A DNA stretch of 64,000 nt, from positions 30,876,001 to 30,940,000 of the forward strand of contig OX597833.1 of the NCBI GenBank assembly GCA_951406725.2, read 5' to 3'. Position 1 is the stretch's first letter, and every line of letters starts with the position of its first letter. This DNA comes from Octopus vulgaris (taxonomy: Eukaryota). Shown here one piece after another: positions 3,597 to 61,745 of this stretch. The position numbers and the translations under genes were made by a program. Under the pieces are notes generated by a model. The model had not been told where the DNA came from and did no database searches. It saw only the letters and a program-made list of their open reading frames with translations.

Positions 3597-6134
3597 AGCA
3601 CGGAGGCCAGTCGATGCGGTACTGGCTACGGTCACGCTCGGATGGTTTTCTTATGTGCCACCAATACTGGTACCACAAGGATACAAATTCCATCGATGTT
3701 CATCTATTTTGATTTGGTTTGATTTGATTTGAATTGATTTGATTTGATTGATTTTCACTTGCCTCAACAGGTCTTCACAAGTGTCACAAGAAGGAAGGTA
3801 TGCACAGGTGGACTGACTACGTCCCAGGTAGGGGCCACGGGTTATGGCTTCACTAGTCTTGCCGGGTCTTCTCACGCACAGCATACTTCCATAGGTCTCG
3901 GTCTATAGTCATTTCCATGGTGAGACCTAACGTTCGAAAGTCGTGCTTCACCACCTCGTCCCAGGTTTTCCTGGGTCTACCTCTTCCACGGGTTCCCTCA
4001 ACTGCTAGGGATTGGCACTTTCTCACATACCTATCTTCATCCATTCTCGCCACATGACCATACCAGCGCAATCGTCTCTCTTGCACACCACAACTGATGC
4101 TTCTTAAGTACAACATTTCTCTCAAGGTACTAACGCTCTGTCGAGTAAGTACACTGACATTACACATCCATCGGAGCATACTGGCTTCATTCCTCACGAG
4201 CTTACGCATGTCCTCAGCAGTCACGGCCCATGTTTCACTGCCATGTAGCATGGCTGTTCATACACATGCATCATACAGTCTGCCTTTTACTCTGAGCGAG
4301 AGGCCTTTAGTCACCAGCAGAGGTAAGAGCTCCCTAAACTTTGCCCAGGCTATTCTTATTCTAGCAGTTACACTTTCAGCGCACCCACCCCCACTACTGA
4401 CTTGGTCACCTAGATAATGGAAGCTATCAACTACTTCTAGTTTTTCCCCCTGGAAAGTGACGGAAGTTGTTTTCTGCAGATTTTCGGAGGTCAATGCTCC
4501 CGAGCATCTGCCACATACAAAAACTATCTTCCCAGTTAGCCTACCTTTGACATTGCTGCACCTCTTATGTGTCCATAGCTTACACTGGGTACATCTTATA
4601 GAGTTTCCACCTACACCTTTTCTACAGATCGAGCAGGGCCATCATCCTGAGGATATTTGTGGATTGTCTACCTTTCTACTTATTAGTACTTTGGTTTTAG
4701 CTAGGTTGACTCTAAGGCCCCTCGATTCTAAACCCTCCTTCCACACCTGGAACTTCTCCTCCAGTTCTGATAGTGACTCAGCAATTAGAGCGAGGTCGTC
4801 AGCATAGAGGAGCTCCCAGGGGCAACCTGTCTTGAATTCCTCCACAATTGCCTGGAGGACTATGATAAATAGGAGGGGGCTGAGTACTGAACCCTGGTGG
4901 ACCCCAACCTCTACTTTGAATTCTTCTGTGTACATGTTGCCAACCCTAACCTTACTTACGGCATCTCTGTACATGGCTTGCACAGCCCTCACCAGCCATT
5001 CATCTATCCCTAGTTTCCTCATTGACCACCAGATGAGGGATCGGGGGACCCTATCAAAGGCTTTCTCCATGTCAACGAAAGCCAGGTACAGGGGCTTATC
5101 TTTGGCTAGGTATTTCTCCTGCAGCTGCCTTACCAGGAATATAGCATCAGTGGTGCTTTTCCCTGGCACGAACCCAAACTGCATCTCATCTAAACTAACT
5201 CTCTCTCTAATTAGTTGGGCTATGACCCTCTCCGTAACCTTCATTACCTGATCCAACAGCTTGATACCTCTGTAATTATTTGTATCTAGGGCATCACCTT
5301 TACCTTTGTAGCAGTTGACTAGTATGCTGCTACACCAGTTATTGGGTATGACTCCTTCGTGTATCACCTGGTTGACTATGCGGGTGACTAGGTTATAGCC
5401 GACACTGCCAGATATTTTGAGCATCTCTGCAGTGATTCCTGATGGGCCTGGGGCTTTCCCTGTCTTCATGCTTCTAATTGCCTTAGCTACCACGGAACTG
5501 TCAACTCGGATAGCTGGTCCCTCTGTTGGGTCAACATTCGGCAGACTCTCTTTATCCCGTTCATTTTCTTTATTCAGCAACCTTTCATAGCGGCATCTCC
5601 AAACCTCTCTCTTTGCATCCTCATTTAGCGCAAGTGAACCATCATCCATGTGAACACACTTCTCTCCTACCACATCACGATTCTCTCTCACACACTGTCT
5701 TGCAACACGAAATACCTCAAGTCTTTCATCCTCACGGCTCAAAACATTGGCAAATTTTTTCTTATCCGCTTCCCCTCTGGCGAAATAAACCTGTCTCCTA
5801 ACTTCCCTTTTGGCTGTCTGATACAATTCCCTGCTACCACCGTTCTTCCAGTCCTTCCAAGCCTGTCTCTTTTGTCTAATAGCCCTGTCAACCACGGTGT
5901 TCCACCACCATGTTACTCTGGGTCGAGATGGTACTTTGCTCCATCCACAGATCTGTTCAGTAGCTGTCAGCAGATTGTCTCGTAGGAATCTCCAGTTGTC
6001 TTCCACATTAAGTGAAGCTATATCCCCTTCTATTTCGTCAAAGGCTTCGAGTAGTATGTCTCTAAATCTCTGTCCATTTGCAGGATCCTTAAGCTTCTTC
6101 TGGCAACCATTTAGCTCTGATCCTGATGTCGCTA
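3597..6134 (-). mobile_element. RTE-clade LINE, 5'-truncated and inactivated
   Basis: RT motifs [29 protein letters not shown] and C-terminal LRWYGHV and RGRPRKTW. Premature TGA codons at about 4642 and 4258. Confidence 0.95.
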
Positions 6135-6135
6135 A

Positions 6136-6184
<49 letters not shown>

Positions 6185-6193
6185 GTATATATA

Positions 6194-6224
<31 letters not shown>

Positions 6225-6225
6225 G

Positions 6226-6284
<59 letters not shown>

Positions 6285-6595
6285 GTATATATATATGTAT
6301 ATATATGTATATATATATATATGTATATATATATGTATATATATATGTATATATATATGTATATATATATGTATATATATATGTATATATATATGTATGT
6401 ATATATATATGTATGTATATATATATGTATGTATATATGTATGTATGTATATATATATGTATATATATATGTATGTATATATATATGTATGTATATATAT
6501 ATGTATGTATATATATATGTATATATATATATATGTGTATATACATATGTATATACACACATCCATATATATATATACATCCATATATATACATG
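6135..6595. repeat. (TA)n-type microsatellite
   Basis: Directly visible. Confidence 0.95.
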
Positions 6596-6690
6596 TAAAT
6601 TTAAAATAATAAGGGTGAAAAATTAAATATTAATTTGATTTATATGAATTGAAAACCAGTGGTGTAGCATATAAGACCATTGCGGATCTT

Positions 6691-7000
6691 CTAGCAAAAT
6701 GGATGTCCACTGTTAATGGTTCATTCCTGTTATATAATAGTTCCACTTTTAAACTGAAAGCATCTGACATTACAATAGAGAGATGTTTTTGTTTCACTTT
6801 TAACACGTAATACTGAAATTGTGGAGAAGATATGATATTGCTGTGGGTTCGCCCTAGGCAAGAAGTTAAAAAAACTTTTTGCCCATGACACTACATCGAC
6901 CCTAAGTAAGGCGTGTGTAAAATGTGAGTGAAATTGGTTGTATAGTTCTCAAGTTTTAGGGATTTACACAGACAGACAGACACACATTCTCAGTTATATA
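6691..7000 (-). mobile_element. Short non-autonomous Helitron of the 52341-54891 family
   Basis: Reverse complement matches 52350-52450 and 53360-53570; CTAG at 6691-6694. Confidence 0.65.
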
Positions 7001-7198
7001 TATATATATATATTAATATGTAAAGTCATTGATACTCATGAGAGATAATAATGTTAGTGGCCACAAGCTTAAAACCATATAAGCAAAATTAATAGATATA
7101 TATAGGAGTCAAATATACTTTTTGTGGCTTCAGAGTATTTTTGACTCCTATCTTTAGCAAAGCTAGTGCTTCACAGTGCCCTTGTCTTTGCACGGATT

Positions 7199-7249
7199 TT
7201 TGTCAGTGAACAGGTCACGGTCTTAAAGCGACGAAAATATTTTGACAAA
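7199..7249 (+). ncRNA. Minimal hammerhead-like motif with G3:C8 core, in a Penelope-pLTR-like repeat (about 7190-7385)
   Basis: tttgtca-GTGAACA-g-gtcac..gcgac-GAAA-atat-TT-tgacaaa; 7 bp stem I. Confidence 0.55.
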
Positions 7250-7380
7250 TTAAACTTAAATGTTGAAGTGAATCGAACGGCTTTTGTGTGTTTCTTAAAT
7301 GGCTTACAAACACCTTCCACACTGCAATTGTTTTTTTTCAGCACACGATCTCAGATCAAATCACTTGCTATGCAGGAACA

Positions 7381-7417
<37 letters not shown>

Positions 7418-8743
7418 CACACACACACACATAATAAGTGTGTATATACACACACACACACACACATACACATATATATGCATATATATATATATATCAT
7501 ATATATATCATATTATTTATCATCGTTGGGTAAACATATATCATTAAGATAGTTAGGGACAAGAAGAATAAAGATCAGATGATTGATACCATAGGAAATA
7601 GCTAATACTTTAGATATTGGTCAGATAGAGTTTCAAGACTATAGGCACAGGGACAAATTAGTGAAGTTTTATAGTAATACAGAGAAACAAAACATAATCA
7701 ATAACTTTCTATATCTCATTTTATATGAAATAAGTTAGTTAAATTTTTAAAAGATTGGTGTGAACAATGGATCAATAATTTTTGTTTATTAATAAGTTCC
7801 AGACATACACTTTAGATTTCTAGTGCCTCCATGCAACACAAAGTAAAACTTTATAAGGAAGTGTGGTATGTATAATCAACCACATAATAGAGTAATTAAT
7901 ATTTCTGTTAAGTGTCCAAATGAATTTTGCAAATGATGTATTATGTAATTTGTGTTTGTTATGTGATTATTCCTTCTGGATTTGAATTTTGACACTGCTG
8001 TACTAATATAATAGTATACTTTATCAGGTGTTTGAATGGAATAGTTATGTGCTAAGTTTGCTCTGAGATGCTAGTTATTAAATGGGCTCTTATATTGGTT
8101 GTTACACTTACATATACTTTTATGTTTATTAACTAGTATCTTATTAATTGTATTATTAGTAAAATTATTTTTAAGAGAAAACACTGAATCAGTAGTAATA
8201 TTTATGTCAGACCAAGATGTATTGTTAACAAAGGAGCTGAAGTCAGACCTACCACTTGAATAATTAGAATCAACAGTGGATCCATCATACATAAAATGGA
8301 TATCCATACAGTCTCCATTGCTCAAATTCCACACATTGTTTTTTCATGATTCTTGTAGGAATGCTGAAATGTTGCAATATCAAAGTTAACCCAGTGAACT
8401 TTTGACAAAAAGTACTTTTTAATACTTTTTTATATGTTAACCAGAAGAGGTAAAGCAATGCCTCTAGCCTTTCAGGCCTCTCCCAGATTTGTGAGATTGA
8501 TATGACTGAAATCTGTGGGTCAGTTTCAGCAAGAAACATTTTAGAGAAAGAAATATGTCTTCTTTTTTGCATCTTTCTCATTCTCGCATTTTGCTCATCC
8601 TCCTTCTTTCTGTCTCTCCACCATTTTCTTCCCTCATACTGTAAATAAAATTCTAGTCTCTTCTCATTATCAAACTCACACATATCTTGCAAATCCACTT
8701 TTTGATTAATTTTATTGTTATGTTATGTTGTGTTGCATTGCAG

Positions 8744-9602: not shown

Positions 9603-10961
9603 CATCATCATCATCATCATCATCGTTTAACGTCCGTTTTCCGCGCTAGCACGGGTTGGACGGTTCGACCGGGGTCTGGGAAGCCAGGGGCCGCTCCAGG
9701 CTCCAGTCTGATTCTGGCAGAGTTTCTACGGCTGGATGCCCTTCCTAACGCCAACCACTCCGTGAGTGGATTGGGTGCTTTTTACGTGCCACCTGCACAG
9801 GGGCCGGGGGTCCGGCATCGGTCACGATCGGTTCGAGCTTTTAACGTGCCAGGGACACGGGGGCAACGGGATGCGGGGTAGAGTTGAGTTGGGGGGGGTC
9901 CAGCTGAGAAAGGTTTCACCAGTGAAAAGAGAGGGAGAGATAGTAAAGGGGTGCAGGTAATATAGGGGAGCACCAGTGGGGAAGGTTGGGGGAGGAGGAA
10001 CGATGGCAGGAAGGGTTGGTGAAGGTTCGTAAGAAATATAAACGTAGGATGTGTATATATATATATGGGTAGGTGTGGGGAAGGTTGGGTGGGTAAGGAG
10101 GAACGATGGCAGGAAGGGTTGGTGCAGGTTCGTAAGAAATAAAAACGTAGGATATTACGAGGCATGGAGGGGACTGGAAGGAGATAGTAGGATTGAGGCA
10201 GTGTCAGATTCAAAACAGGAGGAAGCGTAAGATCAGAGGGCGGTTGATGAGCTGAGACGCTAGCAGCTTGTCTTTTCTCAGTGAAAGCATATGAGGAGAA
10301 GGGGTAGGAAGGGGTGGTGGGGGAGGAGGAGGGAGTATCCGGTGTAGATGGTGAGAACAGTGTTCACCGGTATTGGTGGTATTGGCGGTGGGGGGGGGGT
10401 ATTGGTGGGGGGTGGGTATTGGTGGTGGGGGGGGGGTATTGGTGGGGGGGGTGGTGGTATTGGTGGTGGGGGTGGTATTGGTGGTGGGGGTGGTATTGGT
10501 GGTGGGGGTGGGAGGGCGGGCGCACCGCGCAATGGGAGAAGATGAGATTTTTAGGCGGCAGAAAGAAAGACAGGATTTGAGATGGAATGCTTTGCGATCG
10601 TGTGCATAAGTTTCTATGAGTGGAAGTTGGGAAAAGATGGGTTAGAGAATTTAGCGACAGAAAGAAAGACCAAATTTGAGACGAGATGTTTTTGCGAAGT
10701 TTTTGTGAATGAAAGTTTATATGCTTCAGCTAGCATTTGAGACGAAAGACAACGATAACGCCAATATATGGGGAAACAATAATAATAAGAAGGCTTGATG
10801 GTGATGATGATACTTGCAAAAACAATGAAAAGAAGGAACAGGACTTAGCTGATATTTTTCATCCTGCGTATTGGCTAAGCCTGTGGAAGCGAGTGAAGGC
10901 GAGATATATATACAGAGAGAGAGAGAGACAGTGATAACAGAGGGAGAAACCGACACCACAT

Positions 10962-11012
<51 letters not shown>

Positions 11013-11488
11013 GAGATAACAGAGGGACAAAACGACACCGCGCAATGGGAGAAGATGAGATTTTTAGGCGGCAGAAAGAAAGACAGGATTTGAGATGGAA
11101 TGCTTTGCGATCGTGTGCATAAGTTTCTATGAGTGGAAGTTGGGAAAAGATGGGTTAGAGAATTTAGCGACAGAAAGAAAGACCAAATTTGAGACGAGAT
11201 GTTTTTGCGAAGTTTTTGTGAATGAAAGTTTATATGCTTCAGCTAGCATTTGAGACGAAAGACAACGATAACGCCAATATATGGGGAAACAATAATAATA
11301 AGAAGGCTTGATGGTGATGATGATACTTGCAAAAACAATGAAAAGAAGGAACAGGACTTAGCTGATATTTTTCATCCTGCGTATTGGCTAAGCCTGTGGA
11401 AGCGAGTGAAGGCGAGATATATATACAGAGAGAGAGAGAGACAGTGATAACAGAGGGAGAAACCGACACCACATAGCGAGAGAGAGAG

Positions 11489-11535
<47 letters not shown>

Positions 11536-12011
11536 GTGATAACAGAGGGACAAAACGACACCGCGCAATGGGAGAAGATGAGATTTTTAGGCGGCAGAAA
11601 GAAAGACAGGATTTGAGATGGAATGCTTTGCGATCGTGTGCATAAGTTTCTATGAGTGGAAGTTGGGAAAAGATGGGTTAGAGAATTTAGCGACAGAAAG
11701 AAAGACCAAATTTGAGACGAGATGTTTTTGCGAAGTTTTTGTGAATGAAAGTTTATATGCTTCAGCTAGCATTTGAGACGAAAGACAACGATAACGCCAA
11801 TATATGGGGAAACAATAATAATAAGAAGGCTTGATGGTGATGATGATACTTGCAAAAACAATGAAAAGAAGGAACAGGACTTAGCTGATATTTTTCATCC
11901 TGCGTATTGGCTAAGCCTGTGGAAGCGAGTGAAGGCGAGATATATATACAGAGAGAGAGAGAGACAGTGATAACAGAGGGAGAAACCGACACCACATAGC
12001 GAGAGAGAGAG

Positions 12012-12052
<41 letters not shown>

Positions 12053-12514
12053 GTGATAACAGAGGGACAAAACGACACCGCGCAATGGGAGAAGATGAGA
12101 TTTTTAGGCGGCAGAAAGAAAGACAGGATTTGAGATGGAATGCTTTGCGATCGTGTGCATAAGTTTCTATGAGTGGAAGTTGGGAAAAGATGGGTTAGAG
12201 AATTTAGCGACAGAAAGAAAGACCAAATTTGAGACGAGATGTTTTTGCGAAGTTTTTGTGAATGAAAGTTTATATGCTTCAGCTAGCATTTGAGACGAAA
12301 GACAACGATAACGCCAATATATGGGGAAACAATAATAATAAGAAGGCTTGATGGTGATGATGATACTTGCAAAAACAATGAAAAGAAGGAACAGGACTTA
12401 GCTGATATTTTTCATCCTGCGTATTGGCTAAGCCTGTGGAAGCGAGTGAAGGCGAGATATATATACAGAGAGAGAGAGAGACAGTGATAACAGAGGGAGA
12501 AACCGACACCACAT

Positions 12515-12561
<47 letters not shown>

Positions 12562-13038
12562 GTGATAACAGAGGGACAAAACGACACCGCGCAATGGGAG
12601 AAGATGAGATTTTTAGGCGGCAGAAAGAAAGACAGGATTTGAGATGGAATGCTTTGCGATCGTGTGCATAAGTTTCTATGAGTGGAAGTTGGGAAAAGAT
12701 GGGTTAGAGAATTTAGCGACAGAAAGAAAGACCAAATTTGAGACGAGATGTTTTTGCGAAGTTTTTGTGAATGAAAGTTTATATGCTTCAGCTAGCATTT
12801 GAGACGAAAGACAACGATAACGCCAATATATGGGGAAACAATAATAATAAGAAGGCTTGATGGTGATGATGATACTTGCAAAAACAATGAAAAGAAGGAA
12901 CAGGACTTAGCTGATATTTTTCATCCTGCGTATTGGCTAAGCCTGTGGAAGCGAGTGAAGGCGAGATATATATACAGAGAGAGAGAGAGACAGTGATAAC
13001 AGAGGGAGAAAACCGACACCACATAGCGAGAGAGAGAG

Positions 13039-13081
<43 letters not shown>

Positions 13082-13553
13082 GTGATAACAGAGGGACAAA
13101 ACGACACCGCGCAATGGGAGAAGATGAGATTTTTAGGCGGCAGAAAGAAAGACAGGATTTGAGATGGAATGCTTTGCGATCGTGTGCATAAGTTTCTATG
13201 AGTGGAAGTTGGGAAAAGATGGGTTAGAGAATTTAGCGACAGAAAGAAAGACCAAATTTGAGACGAGATGTTTTTGCGAAGTTTTTGTGAATGAAAGTTT
13301 ATATGCTTCAGCTAGCATTTGAGACGAAAGACAACGATAACGCCAATATATGGGGAAACAATAATAATAAGAAGGCTTGATGGTGATGATGATACTTGCA
13401 AAAACAATGAAAAGAAGGAACAGGACTTAGCTGATATTTTTCATCCTGCGTATTGGCTAAGCCTGTGGAAGCGAGTGAAGGCGAGATATATATACAGAGA
13501 GAGAGAGAGACAGTGATAACAGAGGGAGAAACCGACACCACATAGCGAGAGAG

Positions 13554-13592
<39 letters not shown>

Positions 13593-14063
13593 GTGATAAC
13601 AGAGGGACAAAACGACACCGCGCAATGGGAGAAGATGAGATTTTTAGGCGGCAGAAAGAAAGACAGGATTTGAGATGGAATGCTTTGCGATCGTGTGCAT
13701 AAGTTTCTATGAGTGGAAGTTGGGAAAAGATGGGTTAGAGAATTTAGCGACAGAAAGAAAGACCAAATTTGAGACGAGATGTTTTTGCGAAGTTTTTGTG
13801 AATGAAAGTTTATATGCTTCAGCTAGCATTTGAGACGAAAGACAACGATAACGCCAATATATGGGGAAACAATAATAATAAGAAGGCTTGATGGTGATGA
13901 TGATACTTGCAAAAACAATGAAAAGAAGGAACAGGACTTAGCTGATATTTTTCATCCTGCGTATTGGCTAAGCCTGTGGAAGCGAGTGAAGGCGAGATAT
14001 ATATACAGAGAGAGAGAGAGACAGTGATAACAGAGGGAGAAAACCGACACCACATAGCGAGAG

Positions 14064-14098
<35 letters not shown>

Positions 14099-14574
14099 GT
14101 GATAACAGAGGGACAAAACGACACCGCGCAATGGGAGAAGATGAGATTTTTAGGCGGCAGAAAGAAAGACAGGATTTGAGATGGAATGCTTTGCGATCGT
14201 GTGCATAAGTTTCTATGAGTGGAAGTTGGGAAAAGATGGGTTAGAGAATTTAGCGACAGAAAGAAAGACCAAATTTGAGACGAGATGTTTTTGCGAAGTT
14301 TTTGTGAATGAAAGTTTATATGCTTCAGCTAGCATTTGAGACGAAAGACAACGATAACGCCAATATATGGGGAAACAATAATAATAAGAAGGCTTGATGG
14401 TGATGATGATACTTGCAAAAACAATGAAAAGAAGGAACAGGACTTAGCTGATATTTTTCATCCTGCGTATTGGCTAAGCCTGTGGAAGCGAGTGAAGGCG
14501 AGATATATATACAGAGAGAGAGAGAGACAGTGATAACAGAGGGAGAAACCGACACCACATAGCGAGAGAGAGAG

Positions 14575-14615
<41 letters not shown>

Positions 14616-15080
14616 ATAGTGATAACAGAGGGACAAAACGACACCGCGCAATGGGAGAAGATGAGATTTTTAGGCGGCAGAAAGAAAGACAGGATTTGAG
14701 ATGGAATGCTTTGCGATCGTGTGCATAAGTTTCTATGAGTGGAAGTTGGGAAAAGATGGGTTAGAGAATTTAGCGACAGAAAGAAAGACCAAATTTGAGA
14801 CGAGATGTTTTTGCGAAGTTTTTGTGAATGAAAGTTTATATGCTTCAGCTAGCATTTGAGACGAAAGACAACGATAACGCCAATATATGGGGAAACAATA
14901 ATAATAAGAAGGCTTGATGGTGATGATGATACTTGCAAAAACAATGAAAAGAAGGAACAGGACTTAGCTGATATTTTTCATCCTGCGTATTGGCTAAGCC
15001 TGTGGAAGCGAGTGAAGGCGAGATATATATACAGAGAGAGAGAGAGACAGTGATAACAGAGGGAGAAACCGACACCACAT

Positions 15081-15125
<45 letters not shown>

Positions 15126-15587
15126 GTGATAACAGAGGGACAAAACGACACCGCGCAATGGGAGAAGATGAGATTTTTAGGCGGCAGAAAGAAAGACAGG
15201 ATTTGAGATGGAATGCTTTGCGATCGTGTGCATAAGTTTCTATGAGTGGAAGTTGGGAAAAGATGGGTTAGAGAATTTAGCGACAGAAAGAAAGACCAAA
15301 TTTGAGACGAGATGTTTTTGCGAAGTTTTTGTGAATGAAAGTTTATATGCTTCAGCTAGCATTTGAGACGAAAGACAACGATAACGCCAATATATGGGGA
15401 AACAATAATAATAAGAAGGCTTGATGGTGATGATGATACTTGCAAAAACAATGAAAAGAAGGAACAGGACTTAGCTGATATTTTTCATCCTGCGTATTGG
15501 CTAAGCCTGTGGAAGCGAGTGAAGGCGAGATATATATACAGAGAGAGAGAGAGACAGTGATAACAGAGGGAGAAACCGACACCACAT

Positions 15588-15634
<47 letters not shown>

Positions 15635-16110
15635 GTGATAACAGAGGGACAAAACGACACCGCGCAATGGGAGAAGATGAGATTTTTAGGCGGCAGAAAG
15701 AAAGACAGGATTTGAGATGGAATGCTTTGCGATCGTGTGCATAAGTTTCTATGAGTGGAAGTTGGGAAAAGATGGGTTAGAGAATTTAGCGACAGAAAGA
15801 AAGACCAAATTTGAGACGAGATGTTTTTGCGAAGTTTTTGTGAATGAAAGTTTATATGCTTCAGCTAGCATTTGAGACGAAAGACAACGATAACGCCAAT
15901 ATATGGGGAAACAATAATAATAAGAAGGCTTGATGGTGATGATGATACTTGCAAAAACAATGAAAAGAAGGAACAGGACTTAGCTGATATTTTTCATCCT
16001 GCGTATTGGCTAAGCCTGTGGAAGCGAGTGAAGGCGAGATATATATACAGAGAGAGAGAGAGACAGTGATAACAGAGGGAGAAACCGACACCACATAGCG
16101 AGAGAGAGAG

Positions 16111-16147
<37 letters not shown>

Positions 16148-16610
16148 GTGATAACAGAGGGACAAAACGACACCGCGCAATGGGAGAAGATGAGATTTTT
16201 AGGCGGCAGAAAGAAAGACAGGATTTGAGATGGAATGCTTTGCGATCGTGTGCATAAGTTTCTATGAGTGGAAGTTGGGAAAAGATGGGTTAGAGAATTT
16301 AGCGACAGAAAGAAAGACCAAATTTGAGACGAGATGTTTTTGCGAAGTTTTTGTGAATGAAAGTTTATATGCTTCAGCTAGCATTTGAGACGAAAGACAA
16401 CGATAACGCCAATATATGGGGAAACAATAATAATAAGAAGGCTTGATGGTGATGATGATACTTGCAAAAACAATGAAAAGAAGGAACAGGACTTAGCTGA
16501 TATTTTTCATCCTGCGTATTGGCTAAGCCTGTGGAAGCGAGTGAAGGCGAGATATATATACAGAGAGAGAGAGAGACAGTGATAACAGAGGGAGAAAACC
16601 GACACCACAT

Positions 16611-16667
<57 letters not shown>

Positions 16668-17538
16668 GTGATAACAGAGGGAGAAACCGACACCACATAG
16701 CGAGAGAGAGAGAGCGAGAGAGAGAGAGAGAGAGAGAGAGACATAGTGATAACAGAGGGACAAAACGACACCGCGCAATGGGAGAAGATGAGATTTTTAG
16801 GCGGCAGAAAGAAAGACAGGATTTGAGATGGAATGCTTTGCGATCGTGTGCATAAGTTTCTATGAGTGGAAGTTGGGAAAAGATGGGTTAGAGAATTTAG
16901 CGACAGAAAGAAAGACCAAATTTGAGACGAGATGTTTTTGCGAAGTTTTTGTGAATGAAAGTTTATATGCTTCAGCTAGCATTTGAGACGAAAGACAACG
17001 ATAACGCCAATATATGGGGAAACAATAATAATAAGAAGGCTTGATGGTGATGATGATACTTGCAAAAACAATGAAAAGAAGGAACAGGACTTAGCTGATA
17101 TTTTTCATCCTGCGTATTGGCTAAGCCTGTGGAAGCGAGTGAAGGCGAGATATATATACAGAGAGAGAGAGAGACAGTGATAACAGAGGGAGAAACCGAC
17201 ACCACATAGCGAGAGAGAGAGAGCGAGAGAGAGAGAGAGAGACATAGTGATAACAGAGGGACAAAACGACACCGCGCAATGGGAGAAGATGAGATTTTTA
17301 GGCGGCAGAAAGAAAGACAGGATTTGAGATGGAATGCTTTGCGATCGTGTGCATAAGTTTCTATGAGTGGAAGTTGGGAAAAGATGGGTTAGAGAATTTA
17401 GCGACAGAAAGAAAGACCAAATTTGAGACGAGATGTTTTTGCGAAGTTTTTGTGAATGAAAGTTTATATGCTTCAGCTAGCATTTGAGACGAAAGACAAC
17501 GATAACGCCAATATATGGGGAAACAATAATAATAAGAA
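9603..17538 (-). mobile_element. Non-autonomous RTE derivative: 3' UTR fused to 5' UTR plus tandem monomer array, no ORF
   Basis: (CAT)n tail and 3' end (9603-9860) match 34730-34947. Segment 9879-10535 matches the 5' UTR at 30752-31222. Both ends lie in (TA)n. Confidence 0.75.
10524..17538. repeat. Tandem array of ~510 bp units, 13 full copies plus one partial
   Basis: An identical 65 aa ORF recurs at 10737, 11250 and so on to 16983, spaced 506-523 bp, with one 598 bp unit carrying an internal duplication. Variation is almost entirely in (GA)n length. Confidence 0.97.
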
Positions 17539-18726
17539 TATATATATATATGTGTGTGTGTGTGTATGTATGTATGTATAATTGAAAAAATTGGATGAAC
17601 AAGAAGGGTTATGGTTGGATATTAATTTTTTAATTACTACAATTGTTTCCATGCAACATAGTTCTCCAGATGTACAGATACTTGATTATGCAACTGTTTC
17701 CCCACATTATGAGATCTAGCTGTGTTTCCTCAGGTGATATATAAATATCGTCTCCATAAGTTTATGATCCTTGGCTTCAAGAACATCCTCTCTGTCTGTC
17801 ATGGCCTGAATTTAGTAGTAGTCACTAAGATTATCAGTGTGTGTTGTTGCTAAAGGGTCATTGGAAAACTGTTTTGAATGTGTAGGTGTAGGTGATGGTG
17901 ATTCTAGCACTGTTAATGTAGTTGCTATTTTAAAGAGATTGGCATTTTATTTCTTTGTACTGCTGATTTGCTCTTCATAGTAGGTTACACATGCAATTGT
18001 CCTTAGCTGACCTTTAAGATTCAATGCTCAGACACATATACACGTGCACACTCACACACATACATATATATATATACACATGTGAATGTACATATGTGTG
18101 TGTCCAAGCCTTGATTCTTAAAGAAGATAACCACTCTGAAATGCTTGTACCTCACAGTCTAGATAGGTGGTGCTGGAAACTGATTTAATTTAGGTATATT
18201 TACATTTGTCTACAGCGAAAAATTTTCCCCCATGACAAAACAGTGAAGGACTTGTTTACAAGTTGAAACGTACCACAACCATATGTGAACTGGTAATAAC
18301 ATTGTGTTAATATATGTATACATACATGCATACACACATACATATATATCTATACTCACTCACACATACTCATATATATAATGAATACTTATAAATATAT
18401 ATGCACATATATACATGTACATGCACACACACACACATATCTGAATATACATGCATACAGCTATACATACATATAAACACACACATACACAATCATAGAT
18501 ATGTATATATATACACACACACGTATAAATATATGTACATACATACACATACATAGATATGTGTATATTTATGTAAATAAAATAGAATGAAGTATTTAAT
18601 AGACATGTATAAATGTGGATCAAATAAATAAATAAGGAAATGGGTGTAAAGTTTATGCATCTATATGTGCATATACATATAAACATACATATATACACAT
18701 ACTCATGCATTTACAAATATATATAT

Positions 18727-20757: not shown

Positions 20758-21984
20758 CTAGCAGAATTGCCCGGCGTTGCTCGGGGCTGAATTGCTTGAA
20801 AGTACTGTTAATGATTGCACTGAATTATGATGATTCTTCAGGCAAATATTGATATAAGCTTACGGTGAGAGATAAGGACTTAACGATCAAACGTGTGCCA
20901 TTGCATTGTTTTGGGGGAACCAAATTTCTAATGAGCATCATAGGGGCACCAACTTTAAGTTTGAGAAAGTGTGGTGGTAGTCCGGGGTGCTCAAAGGAAT
21001 TGAGTACCTCTATTGGATAGTTGATGACGTCCTCTGGATCAGGAGTTGTATCGATAGACTGATATACATAGACTTCCCCAGGAATGAGTTTTAGCATTTC
21101 ATCATTAATATGGTGAACAGTTTTATTCCTCGGGGCCAGTATAGCCTTTTTGCCAATCCAATCCATATTCTGATAATTAGCTTGTAGATCTGGGAACACT
21201 GCATCTCTGAGATCAGAAGGCGTCTTAACAATGGTACAAATGGAATCGATGGCAATATTACCATTTTCATCCCCTGGTATTTTGCCTTCGCCAAGTGCAA
21301 GGAGGGTGTGAGGAAATGCTGCTGATGTGATATTACGTCGCATATGAGCACGCATATTGGTGTGAAGTTTGAGAGTTACTTCCGTTTATTTTTTAAAATA
21401 TGCATTAAAATGGAAAAAAATGATGGTAAATTATTTGTAAAATCATAGACTCATCGTAGACGCGCGCTAATACCCAGAAGGGCTCGATATGAATGACGAC
21501 TATAAGATACCCGGTTTTGGTTAAACTGCATCGCAAAATGTGGGAGTAGTTAGGAATCTAAATCGGAGTAGACAGACACACAACCTTTCTTTTATATATA
21601 AATATTTTCGTCCTAAAAAACTTTGTATAGAGTGAATGGTTACCTCTATGGAAATATATACACACACGTTATACATACATGTGTGCATAGATGAATATAT
21701 AAATACATTTATATATCTATATACACTTTTGGGCGATCTCTGTGCTACTTAGAGATAACTTTAGATCTTATTTTCGTCCTAAAAGACTTTGTGCGGAGTG
21801 AATGGTTATGTGTATGGAAATATATACACACACATTATACATACATCTGTGTATAGATGAATATATAAATACATTTAAATATCTATATACACTTTTGGGC
21901 GATTTTTCTGCTACTTGGATATAGGTCTTATATTCGTCCTAAAAATCTTTCCTGTCACACACTCACGCACACACACACACGCAC

Positions 21985-25381: not shown

Positions 25382-25592
25382 CTACAAGCCACACCAACTT
25401 GAGCTTTAGCACATTTATACTAAGTAAGGAGGTAAATAAATCCTGCAATTTTGGGATATGACACCATTTCAATAAAATTTTAATAGACTATTAAAATTTT
25501 ATTGAAATGGTGTCATATCCCAAAATTGCAGGATTTATTTACCTCCTTACTTAGTATAAATATGCTAAAGCACAAGTTGGTGTGGCTTGTAG
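25382..25592. repeat. Palindrome, 105 bp arms, 1 nt loop at 25487
   Basis: ctacaagccacacc...taatag-a-ctatta...ggtgtggcttgtag. Confidence 0.95.
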
Positions 25593-28747: not shown

Positions 28748-29051
28748 CAACAACAACAACAATAATAACAACATCGAAAAACACCTTAGGAATGAGAACC
28801 CAGGTTCGAAATTTCCCCAAGACACCTGATGAAGGCTAGAGGGCATATCAGCTGAAATGTTGTGTTAACAACAAAGAAGATGAGGACAAATATCTGTCAA
28901 ATGTAAATAATGTAAATAAAATTTTCTTGTTCTGTACTTTACCATATGTAATAAGTTGACCTGAACTTTTCCAAGTGTAATAACTTGTCCTCTAATTTTC
29001 CAGGTTTATAATCTTAAGAATATTATTTCTCTTGCTCACATTTTTCCATGT
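27936..29051. repeat. Long imperfect inverted repeat (27936-28106 versus 28641-29051), right arm interrupted by an insertion
   Basis: agcaagagaaataatattcttaagattataaacc versus ggtttataatcttaagaatattatttctcttgct. Confidence 0.85.
28821..28866 (+). ncRNA. Minimal Penelope-type hammerhead motif, CpG-decayed
   Basis: gacac-CTGATGA-a-ggct..agct-GAAA-tg-TT-gtgtt. Confidence 0.6.
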
Positions 29052-29960: not shown

Positions 29961-32900
29961 CTGATGTTCACAGCAAGTCAATATTTTTTTCTCTCCCTAT
30001 CTTCCGTATCTCGCACAACTTACATACATTTGCCGCTAATCGTTTTTAAATGTTTGAACTTATACACTAACGAGCTTGCCTTCCCTATCTTATTCTTTCT
30101 CTACGAAATTTAATCCCTTAAGATACCCTCTATCTTTCTCTACGAAGTTTAATTCGATCTTCGCCACACTTTCCCTATCTTTATCTTTCTCTACGAAGTT
30201 TAATTCGATCTTCGCCACGCTTTCCCTATCTTTATCTTTCTCTACGAAGTTTAATTCGATCTTCGCCACACTTTCCCTATCTTTATCTTTCTCTACGAAG
30301 TTTAATCCGATCTTCGCCATTCGCGGTATCTTCTTCTTCTTCAAAAACGAAATCGCCATTACCATTCCCAAATTCAAACTTCCTTCTTCCCCAAATCAGA
30401 GACTTCCGGTCAATCCATCTAAAGGCACCTGGTCCCTCCCACCCCTATCATTCTTCCTGATCACTGATGTTCACAGCAAGTCAATATTTTTTTCTCTCCC
30501 TATCTCGCACAACTTACATACATTTGCCGCTAATCATTTTTAAATGTTTGAACTTATACACTAACGAGCTTGCCTTCCCTATCTTATTCTTTCTCTACGA
30601 AATTTAATCCCTTAAGGTACCCTCTATCTTTCTCTACGAAGTTTAATTCGATCTTCGCCATGCTTTCCCTATCTTTATCTTTCTCTACGAAGTTTAATTC
30701 GATCTTCGCCACGCTTTCCCTATCTTTCTCTACGAAGTTTAATCCGATCTTCGCCATTCGCGGTACTCCCGCCCTTTCCCACCCCCACCACCAATACCGG
30801 TGAACACTGTTCACACCATCTACACCGGATATTCCCTCCTCCCTCCTCCCCCACCACCATCACGTGTCTCTCCCTCCTACCCCTCCTCCTCACATGCTTT
30901 CACTGTGTACTACACCTCCCCCCACCAAGACAAGCAGCTAGCGCCATAGCTCATCAACCGCCCCACTGATCTTACGTTCCTCCTGTTTTGAATCTGTCAC
31001 CGCCTCAACCGGCTATCTCCTTCCAGTCCCCCCCCTCGTGATATCCTACGTTTTTATCTCTTACGAACCTGTTCCAACCCCTCCCTGTCATCATTCCTCC
31101 TTACCCCAACCTTCCCCGCTGGTGCTTCCCTATATTACCTGCACCCCCCCCACTTTCTCTCCCTCTCTTCTCACTGGTGGAACCTTTCTCAGCTGGACCC
31201 CCCCCCCCCCAACTCAACTCTAGAATATCTGTGTTTTTCCTCCTTCCTACACTGCCTAATTACGTTACTCAGTGACGATAACGCTTGCTTAGAATGCTAA
31301 TTTCAATAATTTCAGCCTTTCTGCCACATCTACATCATCAATGACCTTAACGCTTATGCCTACAACACTGCTAACACCAGCTCCTGCCCACGGCAGGTCC
31401 ACAATCTTAACATGCCTACAATGCTTGAATGTTGTCAGGTCGGAAGAGAGATCAGAAGAAAAATGCCACGGAAACCATCACCACCACAACAACCCTCTTC
31501 TTCTCAGGCACTGAATTGCCCCCCTCCCCCCCACATCTCCTTCCCAGTTTTCAGAGTTGGCACTATCAATATTGGTACATTGAAAGGCAGGTCTAGTGAG
31601 ATTGTAGAGATGCTTGAGAGAAGACAGGTTGATGTATGCTGCATACAAGAGGTAAGACGGAGAGGTGCTTCAGCTAGGGTCCTCACAGGCAAGGCACTTA
31701 AGTACAAACTCTTCTGGCAAGGTAACATGGAAGGTGTAGGGGGTGTAGGCATTCTCCTTGCGGAGAAATGGGTTGTCAGGGTTTGCGATAGAGTACTCAA
31801 GCTCAGGTTGGTCCTACAGAGTGGTACAGCTACGATTATCTCCGCCTATGCCCCACAAGCGGGACTACCAAATGATTTGTGGGTGGAGATTTTAATGGGC
31901 ATGTTGGGCGGGAATCGGGTATCTTCACTGGGGTACACGGTGGCCATGGTATTGGCACCAGAAATGATGAGGGAACTAGACTGCTGGAATTCTGTGATGC
32001 ATGTAACCTTTCAATCTGCAACACTAACTTCAAGAAGCCTGACTGCCACCTTATAACCTATCAGTCAGGAGACTCCGCTAGCCAAATAGACTTCATCCTC
32101 ACCAGACAGCGGGATGCAGGGTCACTCTTGAATACAAAGACCCTCCCGGGTGAAGAATGTATCCCTCAGCATAGACTAATCATCAGTGACTTTAAGCTTG
32201 AGGCCAGAAGGACTCCAAGAAACAAACCAATCCAGAAAAGAAGGATTTGGAGGCTAAAGAACCCTTCACATGGTCAGAAATTTAGGGACATACTCATCAA
32301 GAAATTTGATGAGAGGGAGGAGGAGCTCCAGACGTCAGACATAGAAGGTAGCTGGGAATTCCTACAGGACAGCTTGCTGAGTGCCACAGACCGAGTCTGT
32401 GGATGGTGCAAAGTCCCTTCCAGACCTAGAGTTACATGGTGGTGGAATAGTGCAGTAGATAAAGCCATTAGTGCAAAGAGACGGGCCTGGAAAGCCTGGA
32501 GGGATGGGGGCAGCAGGGAACTGTACCAGGCAGCCAAAAGGGAGGCTGGGCGGCAGGTATACATAGCCAAAGATGTAGCAGAAAAGAAGAAGTTTGCCAA
32601 TGTCCAGCGACGTGAGGACCAAAGAGCTGAGGTATTTCGGATTGCCAGACAGTGTGTCAGAGAAAATAGTGATGTTACAGGAGAGAAATGTGTCCGCGTG
32701 GATGATGGGGCACTTGCTTTTACTGTTAGTGAAAAGAAAGAGGCTTGGAGAAGCCATTACGAAAGACTGCTGAACGAGGAGAATGAATGGGAGGAGGAGA
32801 GCCTGCCAAATGTTGACCCAGTAGAGGGACCAGCTACCCGAATAGACAGCTCCCTTGTAGATAAGGCAATTAAGGATATGAAACCAGGCAAAGCCCCCGG

Positions 32901-34947
32901 CCCATCAGGAATCACTGCTGAGATGCTTAAAACAGCTGCCTATGTGGGCTATGGCATAGTCACCCGCATTGTAAACCAGGTAGTTCACAATGGAGTCATA
33001 CCCAATGACTGGCGTAGCAGCACCATAGTCAACTGCTACAAGGGTAAGGGTGATGCTCTAGATAGAAATAATTACAGGGGTATCAAACTGTTGGACCAGG
33101 TGATGAAGGTCACAGAGAGGGTCATAACCCATCTCATTAGGGAGAGAATTTGCTTAGATGAAATGCAGTTCGGTTTTGTGCCAGGTAGAAGCACCACTGA
33201 TGCTATATTCCTGGTCCGACAACTGCAGAAGTACCTAGCTAAAGATAAACCCCTCTACATAGCCTTTGTGGACTTGGAGAAAGCCTTTGACAGTGTTCCC
33301 CGTTCCCTTATCTGGTGGTCGATGCGGAAACTGGAGATTGACGAATGGCTAATAAGGGCTGTACAGGCTCTATACAGAGAGGCTGCCAGCAAGGTTAGGA
33401 TTGGCAACGAATATAGTGAAGAATTCCGGGTAGAAGTAGGTGTGCACCAGGGCTCAGCCCTCAGTCCCCTTCTATTCATCATAGTCCTCCAGGCAATAAC
33501 AGAGGAATTCAAAACAGGATGCCCCTGGGAGCTCCTCTATGCTGATGACCTGGCTCTCATAGCAGAATCACTACCGGAACTAGAAAAGAAATTTCGGGTG
33601 TGTAAGCAAGGGTTAGAATCAAAGGGCCTTAGAGTAAATGTAGCAAAGACCAAAGTAATAGTAAGCAGCAAGGCGTACTCAGCACACACCCCCTCGGGTA
33701 GGTGGCCCTGCTCAATCTGTAGGAAAGGTGCAGGTAGAAACTCCATAAGATGCACCCAATGTAAGCTATGGACGCACAAGAGGTGCAGCAACATTAAAGG
33801 GAAATTAACAGATAAGATAGCTTTCATGTGCGGCAGATGCACAGGGACAATAGACACCACAGACACTCAGAAAACAGATTCCATCACACTCCAGGGAGAG
33901 AAACTAGAAGTAGTTGATAGTTTCCGCTACCTGGGTGACCAAGTTAGTAGCGGAGGTGGATGCACAGAGAGTATCACCACTAGAATACGAATAGCCTGGG
34001 CAAAGTTCAGAAAGCTCCTACCCCTACTGGCGAAAAAGGGTCTCTCCCTCAGAGCGAAAGGTAGACTATGATGCATGTGTGCGAACTGCCATGCTTCACG
34101 GTAATGAAACATGGGCTATAACTGCAGAGGACATGCGTAGACTTGAAAGAAATGAAGCTAGCATGATCCGCTGGATGTGTAATGTCAGTGTGCACGCACG
34201 ACAGAGTGTAAGCATCCTGAGAGAAATGCTGGATATAAGAAGCATCAGATGTGGTGTGCAAGAGCAACGCTTGCGATGGTATGGTCATGTGCTGCGGATG
34301 GATGAGGAGAGATGTGTGAAGAAGTGCCACTCCCAAACAGTTGAAGGTATCAGGGGGAGAGGTAGACCCAGGAAGACATGGGATGAGGCAGTCAAGCATG
34401 ACCTCAGAGCATTGGGCCTCACTGAGGCAATGGCGAAGGACCGAGATCTCTGGAGATATGCTGTGACTGCAAAGACCCGGGCTGCTTCCTGCATCAGTTC
34501 CGCATAGCCCCTGCCCATTCAAAGTACCCCGGATCCCAGATTGTCCCGCTGTGCTTGAGGAGACCTGTTGAGTCAAGTACATGAACACTCCGAACACCCC
34601 TCCCCACTGGTGCTCCCCTATATTTCTGCACCCTCCCCCCCACATAAAAAGCACCATCCGAACGTGGCCGATGCCAGCACCGCCCCGACTGGCTTCTGTG
34701 CAGGTGGCACATAAAAAGCACCAACCGACCGTGGCCGATGCCAGACCCCTCTGGCACCTGTGCAGGTGGCACGTAAAAAGCACCCACTACACTCGCGGAG
34801 TGGTTGGTGTTAGGAAGGGCATCCAGCTGTAGAAACACTACCAGACCAGACTGGAGCCTGGGGCAGCCCCTGGCTCCCCAGACCCCGGTCGAAACCATCC
34901 AACCCGTGCTAGCGCGGAAAACGGACGTTAAACGATGATGATGATGA
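29961..34947 (+). mobile_element. Near full-length RTE LINE (APE endonuclease plus RT), disabled
   Basis: GTINIGTL, CIQEVR, SAYAPQ, GGDFNGHVG, QIDFIL, YADD, LRWYGHV. Deletion with frameshift near 31875, frameshift near 34068, (GAT)n tail, tandem monomers at 29961-30765. Confidence 0.95.
31412..34507 (+). pseudogene. Disrupted RTE polyprotein ORF
   Basis: ORF pieces 31412-, 31879-34071 and 34079-34507 lie in different frames. Confidence 0.9.
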
Positions 34948-35065: not shown

Positions 35066-35129
35066 AGTCTTGTATCACCTGTGATTTCGTACTTACCGCA
35101 GAATTGCGACCATACTCATCAGCAAGACT
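35066..35129 (-). ncRNA. Type I hammerhead ribozyme, apparently intact
   Basis: Reverse complement reads agtcttg-CTGATGA-gtat ggt cgca attc tgcg gtaa gtac-GAAA-tcac ag gtga-TA-caagact. Stem I 7 bp, G-C base of stem II, AUA cleavage triplet. Confidence 0.85.
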
Positions 35130-39320: not shown

Positions 39321-39564
39321 GTTGTCTGATAAAATACCATATAGATGATAATAATAATATTTAACTTTCGCATTTGATTTTGTCTTTACCACCTAAAGGC
39401 AGGCATCATTTTGTATAATCTTGCCGTTACTTGTTACATTTTTCAACCTTCAAGAAAACCTTTGACTGTTTACTAACTGTTCCTTTTAAATGCACCTTTT
39501 TGAGTCATTTGATTGTTACAGTGCAATTTAGCCCATTATGAAGTTGGTGGGTTCCCTCTGACAA

Positions 39565-40095
39565 ATATCAAGGAGTGATGTTTGTAGAGGCCACAGCCCA
39601 TGGAGAATTATCCCATAGATTTAGGAAAGCTCTGAAGGAGACCAGACTCAACATTAAGATTGCTGAAAGGCCAGGAAACTCTTTCAGATCACAACTATGT
39701 AGGATGTACCCCTTTGAGAATACCATATGCACTAATGATAACTTAATGGTATGTAGGATTAACCCTGGCATTAACTGTAGAACTAGAAATGTAGTCTACA
39801 GCATAAGATGCATAGGTGCTTCTAAAGACATGAACATGACATACATAGGGGAGACATCTAGGAGCATTATGGAAAAACTAAATGAACATTTGAGACTATA
39901 TGACAACAAAAATCAGTCCTCCATATTCTACAGTGAGAGGAAGTAGAACAGTCTATAATTGCTGGAGGCAGCCTGGGTCAACTTGACATCTGCATTTTAT
40001 CCAAGCACCCAAAGGACCTAACCCTCAGACAAATACAGAAGTAAGTCCTCATAAATGAAACATCCCCAGTTCTAAATAGTAAATATACATAAGAA
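39565..40095 (+). mobile_element. Penelope-like GIY-YIG endonuclease fragment
   Basis: CRTRNVVYSIRC..TYIGETSRS..NEH. Confidence 0.8.
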
Positions 40096-41382
40096 GTGAT
40101 CATACCCCATACCCACAGTTTATATTTATATACAGATAGAATATTTAGTGGGCTGTTATGTAGATGTATGTGTGTGTATATGCACATGTATGTAGGCAAA
40201 TGGATATGAATGTAAACAGATAGACATACAGACGGGTAGGTACATAGGTTATATAAAGAGACAAGCACACATACTCACACACATAAGCAAATGAAGACTG
40301 AAACACATGACCATACACACACACTTCACTTCACATAAGGAGACACACATCCATACATACAGACACAGTACATAGTTACAAAAGCCCATATACACACACA
40401 CACACACTCAAATATGCACACACAAGGAGACAGAGATACACACACGCACATATACAAACACACATACATACATAAAAACACATAAACACAAACACATGAA
40501 TATGCAGAATACATACAAAAAGGTTGCAAGGCACAATGAAAATTTTAGGAAAAATAAATAAGTAAATGAGTGGAAATCAAACTGGTGTGTGTATTAAATA
40601 ATAAGGCACTAAAAGAGAATGACTCTCCCCAGAGACAACAAAATATGCTTCAACACACAAGCTCACATAAAGAATCTTGCAAACCAAATCCAAAAACGAA
40701 ATACATACACACACACAGATGCCCATTTTTCCACCCTGAAGACAGGGGCCAGTCTTACGATAATGTTTATATGCATCCACCACTGGTTGCATATCAATGA
40801 TCTTTTGCATACTCCATCTCCCAACTTTTCAACTATTAGGTAATTCCAGAAACAGCTGTGAGACCATGATGTCACCTCTTAGTTTTTTTGTATTTCTTGT
40901 ACTCCGTGTAAATTTGTTCTGTAAATATATGAATATCTATATGCTTATACACGAATGTTCATCTTCTGAATATTTTCAGTTTTTGTTTCTCTCTATATAT
41001 ATCCCTGTATATTAAGATGTACATATGTATGTATATTTCATATTTTATATATCAAGCCCAAGTGTGTTTTCTATCCACTCATTGTAGACTACAAATAAAA
41101 TATTTGTCAATCATTCTAATCATCTTGTTATCTATATAGCTCTTTGTCTATCTTTCAATCTTTCCATTTTCTCTCTCTCACCCTCTCTTTCTCTCTCTCT
41201 CTCTCAGTTTGTAAATTCTGTTACGTTTGTATACCATTATGGGCAAAGACCTTCATTATAGAAAATTGTTTTTAATCTTTACTAGCAGAGATACCTGACG
41301 TTGCCCGGTTACATTCAATAGAAGAATTAGATTTTTCTGTTATATATATATATATGGATACACACACACACAAATATATGTA

Positions 41383-42368: not shown

Positions 42369-42730
42369 TTAGGCCTTCTCATGTAAACTCAAGCTTTCTC
42401 ATGCCTTCAACATATGACCAAAGCAGAGAATGTATTCTTTTATTCTTCTGCTTTTTCCAGCCATTGGTCTGTGGCCATGCTGGGGCAATGCCTTGAAGAA
42501 TTGTAGTTTAATGAATCAACTCCAGTTTTATTTTTGTAAGCATTGTACTTATTCTATGTTTCCTTTGTCAAACCACTAGGTGACAGGGATGTAAACAAAC
42601 CAACATTCATTGTCAAGCAGTGGTGGAGGACAATCACAAGCACAGACACGCACACACACACACATACATGCATACACATATACACACATACATACATACA
42701 TACATATATATATATGTGTGTATATATATA

Positions 42731-42989
42731 TTGCAGCGTGGAAGGTGTTTGTAAGCCATTTAAGAAACACACAAAAACCGTTACATTCACTTTAACATTT
42801 AAATTTAATTTGCCAAAATATTTTCGTCGCTTTCAGACCGCGACCTGTTCACTGACAAAAATATCGTGCTAACAGGTCGCGGTCTCAAAGCGACGAAAAT
42901 ATTTTCACAAATTAAATTTAAATGTTGAAGTGAATCTAACGGTTTTTGTGTGTTTCTTAAATGGCTTATAAACACCTTCAACGCTGCAA
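42731..42989. repeat. Inverted pair of pLTR-like repeats (42731-42849 versus 42871-42989)
   Basis: ttgcagcg.gaaggtgttt versus aaacaccttc.acgctgcaa; same family as 7190-7385. Confidence 0.9.
42809..42859 (-). ncRNA. Second G3:C8 hammerhead-like motif
   Basis: Reverse complement reads tttgtca-GTGAACA-g-gtcgc ggtctgaaa gcgac-GAAA-atat-TT-tggcaaa. Confidence 0.6.
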
Positions 42990-43079
42990 CTGTTTTCGTT
43001 CCAGCACACGATCTCAGATCAAGTCACTTGCTATGCAAGTACATCTCTGTAACTATATATATATTCATTTATATATATA

Positions 43080-61655: not shown

Positions 61656-61745
61656 TGAATTCCTCAATTACAATTCAAATCTAAAATGTTGGGACTATCA
61701 TGATAAACAGAAACTAACTAGAAATGTTGTATATACTGAAGTTGT

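What the first reader, a model, noticed from the sequence alone, without database searches (positions are those of the whole stretch)
7199..7249. Hammerhead family with swapped catalytic-core pair G3:C8
Seen: complete type I geometry (7 bp stem I, stem II, GAAA, palindromic AAATATTT stem III), but the core is GTGAACA rather than CTGANGA, identically in a second copy at 42809-42859 (-). Known: C3 and G8 form a tertiary Watson-Crick pair, and compensatory swaps can partly rescue activity. Inference: a family-fixed natural compensatory variant, invisible to CUGANGA searches, with an extra nucleotide after A9 and a UUU site. Whether it has been described before cannot be judged from here.
Basis: partly seen in the sequence, partly recalled or inferred. 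Interest (0 to 1): 0.8.

Follow-up and report, generated by a model that had tools for sequence, protein, structure and literature searches.

The report
Swapped-core hammerhead in octopus-like Penelope element
Thousands of copies of a jumping gene in this animal genome carry a hammerhead-shaped RNA whose two paired core letters have swapped places (C-G to G-C); it likely still cuts itself slowly in pairs, but cutting has not been shown.

Summary
Confirmed and extended. 7199-7249 is a minimal type I hammerhead layout with core GUGAACA (G3:C8), an extra G after A9, a palindromic AAUAUU stem III and U17. It lies in a ~195-bp solo pseudo-LTR of a Penelope-like retrotransposon (PLE). G000 holds 6,840 G3:C8 matches and 1,736 canonical C3:G8 matches on the same stem II scaffold, but only 347 G-G/C-C. 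In copies picked without regard to the core, 70 of 73 are G3:C8 and none C3:G8. A full-length 4.3-kb parent (RT plus GIY-YIG) carries the motif in both pLTRs. An older, diverged subfamily keeps G3:C8 while N7, loop II and stem III changed. Against strong catalysis: only 1 of 95 copies ends at the predicted cut, folding predicts a G3·U17 trap, and a young sister family (3,565 matches) has A9C. The window's second copy is a passenger in another repeat, not independent support. Natural U3-A8 and engineered G3-C8 are published; I found no natural G3-C8 report in eight searches, but key papers were not held. The scan noted G3-C8 before in phages and protist PLEs. Verdict: new variant of a known kind; cleavage untested.

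The parts
7190..7384 (+). Solo pseudo-LTR copy of a Penelope-like element (5' leader with hammerhead plus first codons of the ORF/tail)
   Evidence: 95-97% identical to the best dispersed copies; same sequence forms both pLTRs of full-length element L324
7199..7249 (+). Minimal type I hammerhead motif, G3:C8 variant
   Evidence: covariation across families
7206..7212 (+). Core box G3 U4 G5 A6 A7 C8 A9 (C3:G8 swapped to G3:C8)
   Evidence: sequence; 70 of 73 unbiased copies G3:C8
7213..7213 (+). Extra G between A9 and G10.1
   Evidence: sequence; 67 of 73 copies; shared with canonical sisters
7214..7232 (+). Stem II (5 bp, G10.1-C11.1; A7217·C7229 mismatch in this copy) and 9-nt loop
7233..7242 (+). 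G12 A13 A14, palindromic stem III AATATT (7236-7241, predicted dimer helix), U17; predicted cut between 7242 and 7243
   Evidence: sequence; U17 in 73 of 73 copies; duplex energy
7299..7384 (+). Start of the PLE ORF (ATG 7299) and the optional 'tail'; frameshifted in this copy
   Evidence: 5' pLTR of L174 runs on into the ORF; homologous to the L120 ORF start
42730..42872 (-). Second copy, tail-less inverted arm, with intact motif at 42809-42859
   Evidence: junction and flanks shared with 7 other loci
42871..43064 (+). Third copy, tail-bearing arm of the same insertion, 5'-truncated inside the core
   Evidence: (blastn)

Best explanation
This is the hammerhead motif in the pseudo-LTR of a Penelope-like retrotransposon lineage in which the core pair is G3:C8 instead of C3:G8, and it likely remains a slow, dimer-dependent and probably protein-assisted self-cleaver. 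Shown: the motif sits in both pLTRs of a 4.3-kb RT/GIY-YIG element and in thousands of solo pLTR copies, of which the window holds three; canonical sister lineages exist in the same genome. Inferred: transcription starts about 58 nt upstream of the cut site. A full-length transcript carries two motifs whose AAUAUU palindromes would pair into one shared stem III, allowing cleavage after U17 and release of unit-length RNA. Single motifs stay uncut, which would explain why solo copies were reverse-transcribed with the motif intact. Also inferred: the swap was kept by selection for the 3:8 tertiary pair, and U17 in place of C17 would weaken the G3-C17 mispair.
For: 3:8 counts on one scaffold: G-C 6,840, C-G 1,736, G-G plus C-C 347 (minus 36 and 37), of 9,848 with any 3/8 letters. 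Unbiased sample: 70 of 73 G3:C8, 73 of 73 U17. An older subfamily has core GTGACCA, another loop II and a 4-nt AATT stem III. A core-blind search gave G3:C8 49, C3:G8 15, other 36 of the 100 rows listed of 103, counted by eye. A tree on sequence 3' of GAAA needs one change of the label. Hand-picked family representatives show double-sided changes in stems I, II, III and at 3:8. Parent: 14 of 14 long-ORF loci carry the motif ~1 kb behind the GIY-YIG end; Pfam GIY-YIG hit; two motifs 4,261 bp apart in L324. 43 of 95 5' ends fall at -55 to -64, and 13 of 23 copies ending there have an extra G, as a copied cap would give. Contigs of four further coded organisms hold the element, with no other letter at 3% or more over 7206-7216 (X20 had only 4 contigs). 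Engineered C3G/G8C partly rescues a PLE hammerhead (PMC11167929).
Against: No cleavage data. Only 1 of 95 copies ends exactly at the predicted cut, 5 within 6 nt. A young sister family with intact 1,310-aa ORFs has A9C, 3,565 matches, so a non-consensus core does not stop amplification. In Anolis PAc, dead ribozyme mutants insert normally in vitro (PMC11167929). G3·U17 is predicted to extend stem I (P 0.41-0.67), and the dimer helix is only -0.2 kcal/mol. The swap is one event on a weakly supported branch (47/80), so the large counts are not independent. Representatives were chosen by me. Some of the extra Gs may be junction microhomology.
Confidence: 0.62

Rival explanations
1. A catalytically dead or negligible hammerhead fold kept as an RNA structure, for example a binding or folding signal for the PLE protein; the 3:8 pair matters for shape, not cutting.
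For: Copies derive from uncut RNA. A9C is fixed in a successful sister family. Predicted G3·U17 trap and weak dimer helix. Cleavage is dispensable for PAc insertion in vitro (PMC11167929); minimal PLE hammerheads cleave poorly (PMC4209133).
Against: The 3:8 pair is described as forming in the active conformation (PMC3884650 passages). U4, G5, A6, A9, G12-A15.1 and U16.1 stay fixed in old and young G3:C8 subfamilies while N7, loop II and flanks changed.
Confidence: 0.27
2. Neutral drift: a dead ribozyme picked up two substitutions that happen to be complementary, and the master copy was amplified regardless.
For: Single origin on the tree. Two transversions need an unpaired intermediate. A9C shows that the core can drift.
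Against: Of about 13 invariant core positions, exactly 3 and 8 changed, and complementarily: roughly 0.4% by my estimate (1/78 x 1/3). The rest of the core survived long flank divergence between old and young subfamilies.
Confidence: 0.06
3. The core letters are constrained at DNA level as part of the PLE internal promoter (about +23 to +35 from the inferred start) rather than as a ribozyme.
For: The motif lies just downstream of the inferred start site; Penelope has an internal promoter in the pLTR (PMC8557442 passages).
Against: Stem covariation, a palindromic stem III and a free N7 are RNA-structure signatures.
Confidence: 0.05

Closest known systems
Minimal type I hammerheads in PLE pseudo-LTRs (Cervera & de la Pena 2014, PMC4209133; main text parts 1-2 of 4 and supplement file 2 parts 1-2 of 3 read)
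   Same: Location in pLTRs, type I layout, extra nucleotide between 9 and 10.1, G10.1-C11.1, short palindromic stem III, many solo and inverted copies
   Different: Core GUGANCA; none of the Fig. S3 representatives has G3-C8. The extra base is G (their consensus is H, with one G example). Stem I is 7 bp.
Natural U3-A8 hammerheads (Perreault 2011, PMC3088659, section 8 and passages read; S. mansoni family Sm3, Cervera 2014)
   Same: Natural covariation of the 3:8 Watson-Crick pair
   Different: U3-A8 keeps pyrimidine-3/purine-8 (two transitions); G3-C8 inverts it (two transversions)
Engineered C3G/G8C mutant of the Anolis PAc PLE hammerhead (Frangieh 2024, PMC11167929, parts 1-2 of 4 read)
   Same: Same pair in a PLE hammerhead, partial rescue; tail from two RT start sites in the ORF start; uncut RNA as template
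   Different: Engineered, Poseidon clade; here natural, fixed, and upstream of the ORF start
EN+ PLEs of Neptune/Nematis type (Craig 2021, PMC8557442, passages read)
   Same: RT plus C-terminal GIY-YIG, C-x3-C-x2-C linker, pLTRs, inverted 5'-truncated copy, tail, (TA)n neighbours
   Different: Clade not placed by phylogeny here; hammerhead core non-canonical

Membership tests
Hammerhead ribozyme, minimal type I (PLE) | Three-way junction with stems I, II and palindromic III | tested here: met
   covariation
Hammerhead ribozyme, minimal type I (PLE) | Literal CUGANGA consensus | tested here: not met
   GUGAACA; 0 of 73 copies C3:G8
Hammerhead ribozyme, minimal type I (PLE) | Watson-Crick complementarity at 3:8 | tested here: met
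Hammerhead ribozyme, minimal type I (PLE) | U4 G5 A6 A9, GAAA, G10.1-C11.1, A15.1-U16.1, H17 | tested here: met
   sequence
Hammerhead ribozyme, minimal type I (PLE) | Rfam hammerhead model match | tested here: inconclusive
   No hammerhead hit at E<=10 for the 42809 copy or among the 150 listed of 212 window hits; canonical sisters L064, L108, L055 are missed too
Hammerhead ribozyme, minimal type I (PLE) | Self-cleavage after N17 | not testable with these tools
   No assay possible; copy ends show no peak at the site
Penelope-like element (EN+) | Single ORF with RT and C-terminal GIY-YIG | tested here: met
   L163 1,025 aa; GIY-YIG PF01541; RT motifs by regex; Pfam RVT_1 not hit
Penelope-like element (EN+) | Direct pLTRs, inverted 5'-truncated copy, optional tail | tested here: met
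   L324
Neptune/Nematis PLE clades | Zn-finger-like RT-EN linker and phylogenetic placement | tested here: inconclusive
   C-x3-C-x2-C present; no tree with reference PLEs
Non-LTR retrozyme | Short head-to-tail tandem units without a coding parent | tested here: not met
   No same-strand neighbour within 1 kb among the 100 listed of 9,143 places; coding parent exists

The most novel reading that the evidence does not exclude
An undescribed natural, active G3:C8 hammerhead in an animal: a PLE lineage crossed an inactive intermediate, fixed the inverted pair together with U17, and kept it through old and young subfamilies. This would show that PLE hammerheads are selected for catalysis even though insertion uses uncut RNA, and that CUGANGA-based censuses miss whole families, including PLEs reported to lack hammerheads.
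Probability: 0.45. Interest if true: 0.68.

Novelty: new variant of a known kind. Interest (0 to 1): 0.52.

Why it matters
The role of hammerheads in Penelope-like elements is open: they are nearly universal, cleave poorly, and are dispensable for insertion in vitro. One genome here offers three related lineages (C3:G8, G3:C8, A9C), with full-length or near-full-length elements seen for the G3:C8 and A9C lineages, so the question of selection for catalysis becomes directly testable. It also shows that descriptors fixed on CUGANGA miss at least 6,840 motifs in a single animal genome.

Tried and rejected
Rfam gave no hammerhead hit for the variant or for canonical sisters, so it is uninformative. 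The long ORFs in the window are LINE-type (RVT_1, PHD, endonuclease) or PIF1 fragments, not the parent. Same-strand pairs at L031 and L046 were not full-length elements. A Pfam accession recalled for a PLE domain was not in the library. The L120 ORF had no Pfam hit and the L163 ORF no PDB hit. No RNA holder listed on record, so expression was not assessed; contigs cannot show RNA ends. Monomer/dimer cofolding did not yield the active dimer as the minimum-energy structure. Family binning was crude (some rows misassigned, 19 of 219 unbinned), so I rely for counts. Rejected: chance motif; retrozyme; the second window copy as independent evidence. Not held and not read: Lunse 2016/2017, Przybilski & Hammann 2007, and three ids recalled for Hammann 2012, Seehafer 2011 and Nelson & Uhlenbeck 2008. 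Supplement file 1 of PMC4209133 was not searchable.

Full report
Observation. The motif is present as described: stem I 7199-7205/7243-7249, core GTGAACA 7206-7212, extra G, stem II, GAAA, palindromic AATATT, U17. A loose G3:C8 pattern hits only the two reported places, against 0.03 expected. The 7199 copy is slightly decayed (A·C in stem II; folding z -0.57), while a young relative gives z -3.4. A third, core-truncated copy at 42871-43064(+) forms an inverted pair with the second. That junction and its flanks recur at 7 other loci, so the second copy travelled inside another repeat and would tend to form a long hairpin; it is not independent evidence.

The host element. G000 is 2.8 Gb. The best named relative of the parent protein is an Octopus vulgaris RT-domain protein at 56% identity, so the genome is likely an octopus (inference). 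The motif lies in a ~200-bp dispersed repeat (9,143 exact core 13-mers versus 49 control; 10,742 matches to a downstream 17-mer). Copies often carry an inverted 5'-truncated partner that lacks the last ~45 nt, and some show target duplications by eye. These are PLE hallmarks (PMC8557442 passages). Two of the first 30 loci extended upstream into a GIY-YIG C-terminus. Searching with that protein found a young family: 14 of 14 long-ORF loci carry the GTGAACA motif about 1 kb behind the ORF. L163 has 1,025 open codons with RT motifs, a C-x3-C-x2-C linker and a Pfam GIY-YIG hit. L324 is a full-length element with the motif in both pLTRs, 4,261 bp apart, and its 5' pLTR runs on into the ORF. The window copies are therefore solo pLTRs: the 5' leader plus up to ~30 codons.

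Is the swap real covariation? On one scaffold (TGANNA-GGTC..GACGAAA, 9,848 matches), G3:C8 has 6,840, C3:G8 1,736, and G-G plus C-C 347 (by subtraction). The C3:G8 copies are homologous sister PLE families sharing stem II and the ORF-start tail; the L120 sister ORF is 54% identical to L163. To avoid circularity I took the first 100 matches to a 17-mer downstream of the motif. 95 were recovered as distinct copies and 73 span the core: 70 are G3:C8, none C3:G8, all U17. An older, much diverged subfamily has core GTGACCA, a different loop II, a 4-nt AATT stem III and U17. A core-blind pattern gave 49 G3:C8, 15 C3:G8 and 36 others, mostly one change away, among 100 listed of 103, counted by eye. 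A tree of 60 rows built only on sequence 3' of GAAA (12 sampled per bin, restricted to G-C or C-G cores) needs one label change against 20 for shuffles, with weak support of 47/80. So this is one swap, kept through old and young subfamilies while the free position N7 changed. Hand-picked representatives show double-sided changes at 3:8 and in stems I, II and III (biased by my choice and by relatedness). Contigs from four other coded organisms hold the element without core variants at 3% or more.

How it likely works. 43 of 95 5' ends cluster 55-64 nt upstream of the predicted cut. 13 of 23 copies ending there have a G where the parent has a pyrimidine (p 4e-5 against 18% G; two rows are duplicates and some Gs may be microhomology). 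I infer a capped transcript starting there, copied to its end from RT start sites in the ORF start, as shown for PAc (PMC11167929). Only 1 of 95 copies ends at the cut, so templates were mostly uncut. This fits a ribozyme that needs a partner: the published model has two motifs of one transcript pairing through the palindrome (PMC4209133; PMC6765202 section 11). Engineered C3G/G8C partly restores activity in a PLE hammerhead that needs the element's protein (PMC11167929). G3-C8 is reported to work better without C17 (PMC3884650 passage, data not shown there); here the G3 lineage has U17, while most A9 canonical sisters have C17. Steps not shown: transcription, dimer formation, cleavage.

Against. 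A young sister family with intact ORFs has A9C (3,565 matches), so deviation from consensus does not stop amplification; it also has U17, so U17 is not unique to G3. G3·U17 is predicted to extend stem I (P 0.41-0.67), the 6-bp dimer helix is -0.2 kcal/mol, and cofolding did not give the active dimer. No RNA evidence was obtainable. I put a slow but real ribozyme at 0.62, a structural non-cutting role at 0.27, drift at 0.06 and a promoter constraint at 0.05.

Comparison with what is known. It works like, and by position and anatomy belongs with, the minimal PLE hammerheads of Cervera & de la Pena 2014; the literal CUGANGA consensus is not met and cleavage is untested. Natural U3-A8 is published (PMC3088659 section 8; PMC4209133). 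None of the Fig. S3 representatives of PMC4209133 is G3-C8. Searches found no natural G3-C8 report, but Lunse et al. and Przybilski & Hammann 2007 were not held, so prior description cannot be excluded. Other papers seen: PMC6155905 and PMC8495972 (passages), PMC10085705 (passages and section 14: natural A9U is functional), bioRxiv 10.64898/2026.07.22.740005 (part 1 of 5). Earlier notes of this scan list G3-C8 cores in phages and protist PLEs (unchecked). What is particular here is the copy number, the complete parent, the canonical sisters and the two age layers. Verdict: new variant of a known kind, interest 0.52.

Noticed in passing
G000-wide; L119-L130 (e.g. L120:2251-2302 and 6797-6848): Young sister PLE family with intact 1,310-aa ORFs whose hammerhead core reads CTGATGC (A9C) with U17; 3,565 matches.
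   Followed up: partly
window 35067-35128 (-): Canonical type I hammerhead (CTGATGA core, longer stem III); weak Rfam RF00163 match, E 0.27. Host element not identified.
   Followed up: partly
window 28821-28866 (+): Decayed canonical minimal hammerhead of another repeat family; a related copy lies beside L027.
   Followed up: no
window 39548-40723 (+): Old PLE remnant: GIY-YIG end, CA-rich UTR and ORF-start tail, with no hammerhead picked up by the window scan.
   Followed up: partly
window ~42680-43080 and 7 loci on G000:C1 (L256, L260, L298, L299, L303, L304, L307): A larger unidentified repeat carries the same inverted pLTR pair as a passenger.
   Followed up: partly
solo pLTR copies, L237-L323: Excess G just 5' of the common 5' end (13 of 23), as a reverse-transcribed cap would leave.
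   Followed up: partly
window 3827-6600 (-), 31310-34515 (+), 57014-57753, 60323-62728: LINE-type retrotransposon copies with endonuclease, RT and a C-terminal PHD finger.
   Followed up: no
window 45829-46419 (-) and 20825-21385 (-): PIF1 helicase fragments, probably Helitron remnants.
   Followed up: no
window 10379-17569: Tandem array of 14 near-identical units of about 513 bp.
   Followed up: no
window 25417-25557: Near-perfect 139-bp palindrome (spurious miRNA hits).
   Followed up: no
L046:1270-1932 and 7464-8009: 6.2-kb duplication with two uninterrupted deaminase-like ORFs (dCMP deaminase label recalled from the motifs, not searched), each beside a G3:C8 copy.
   Followed up: no
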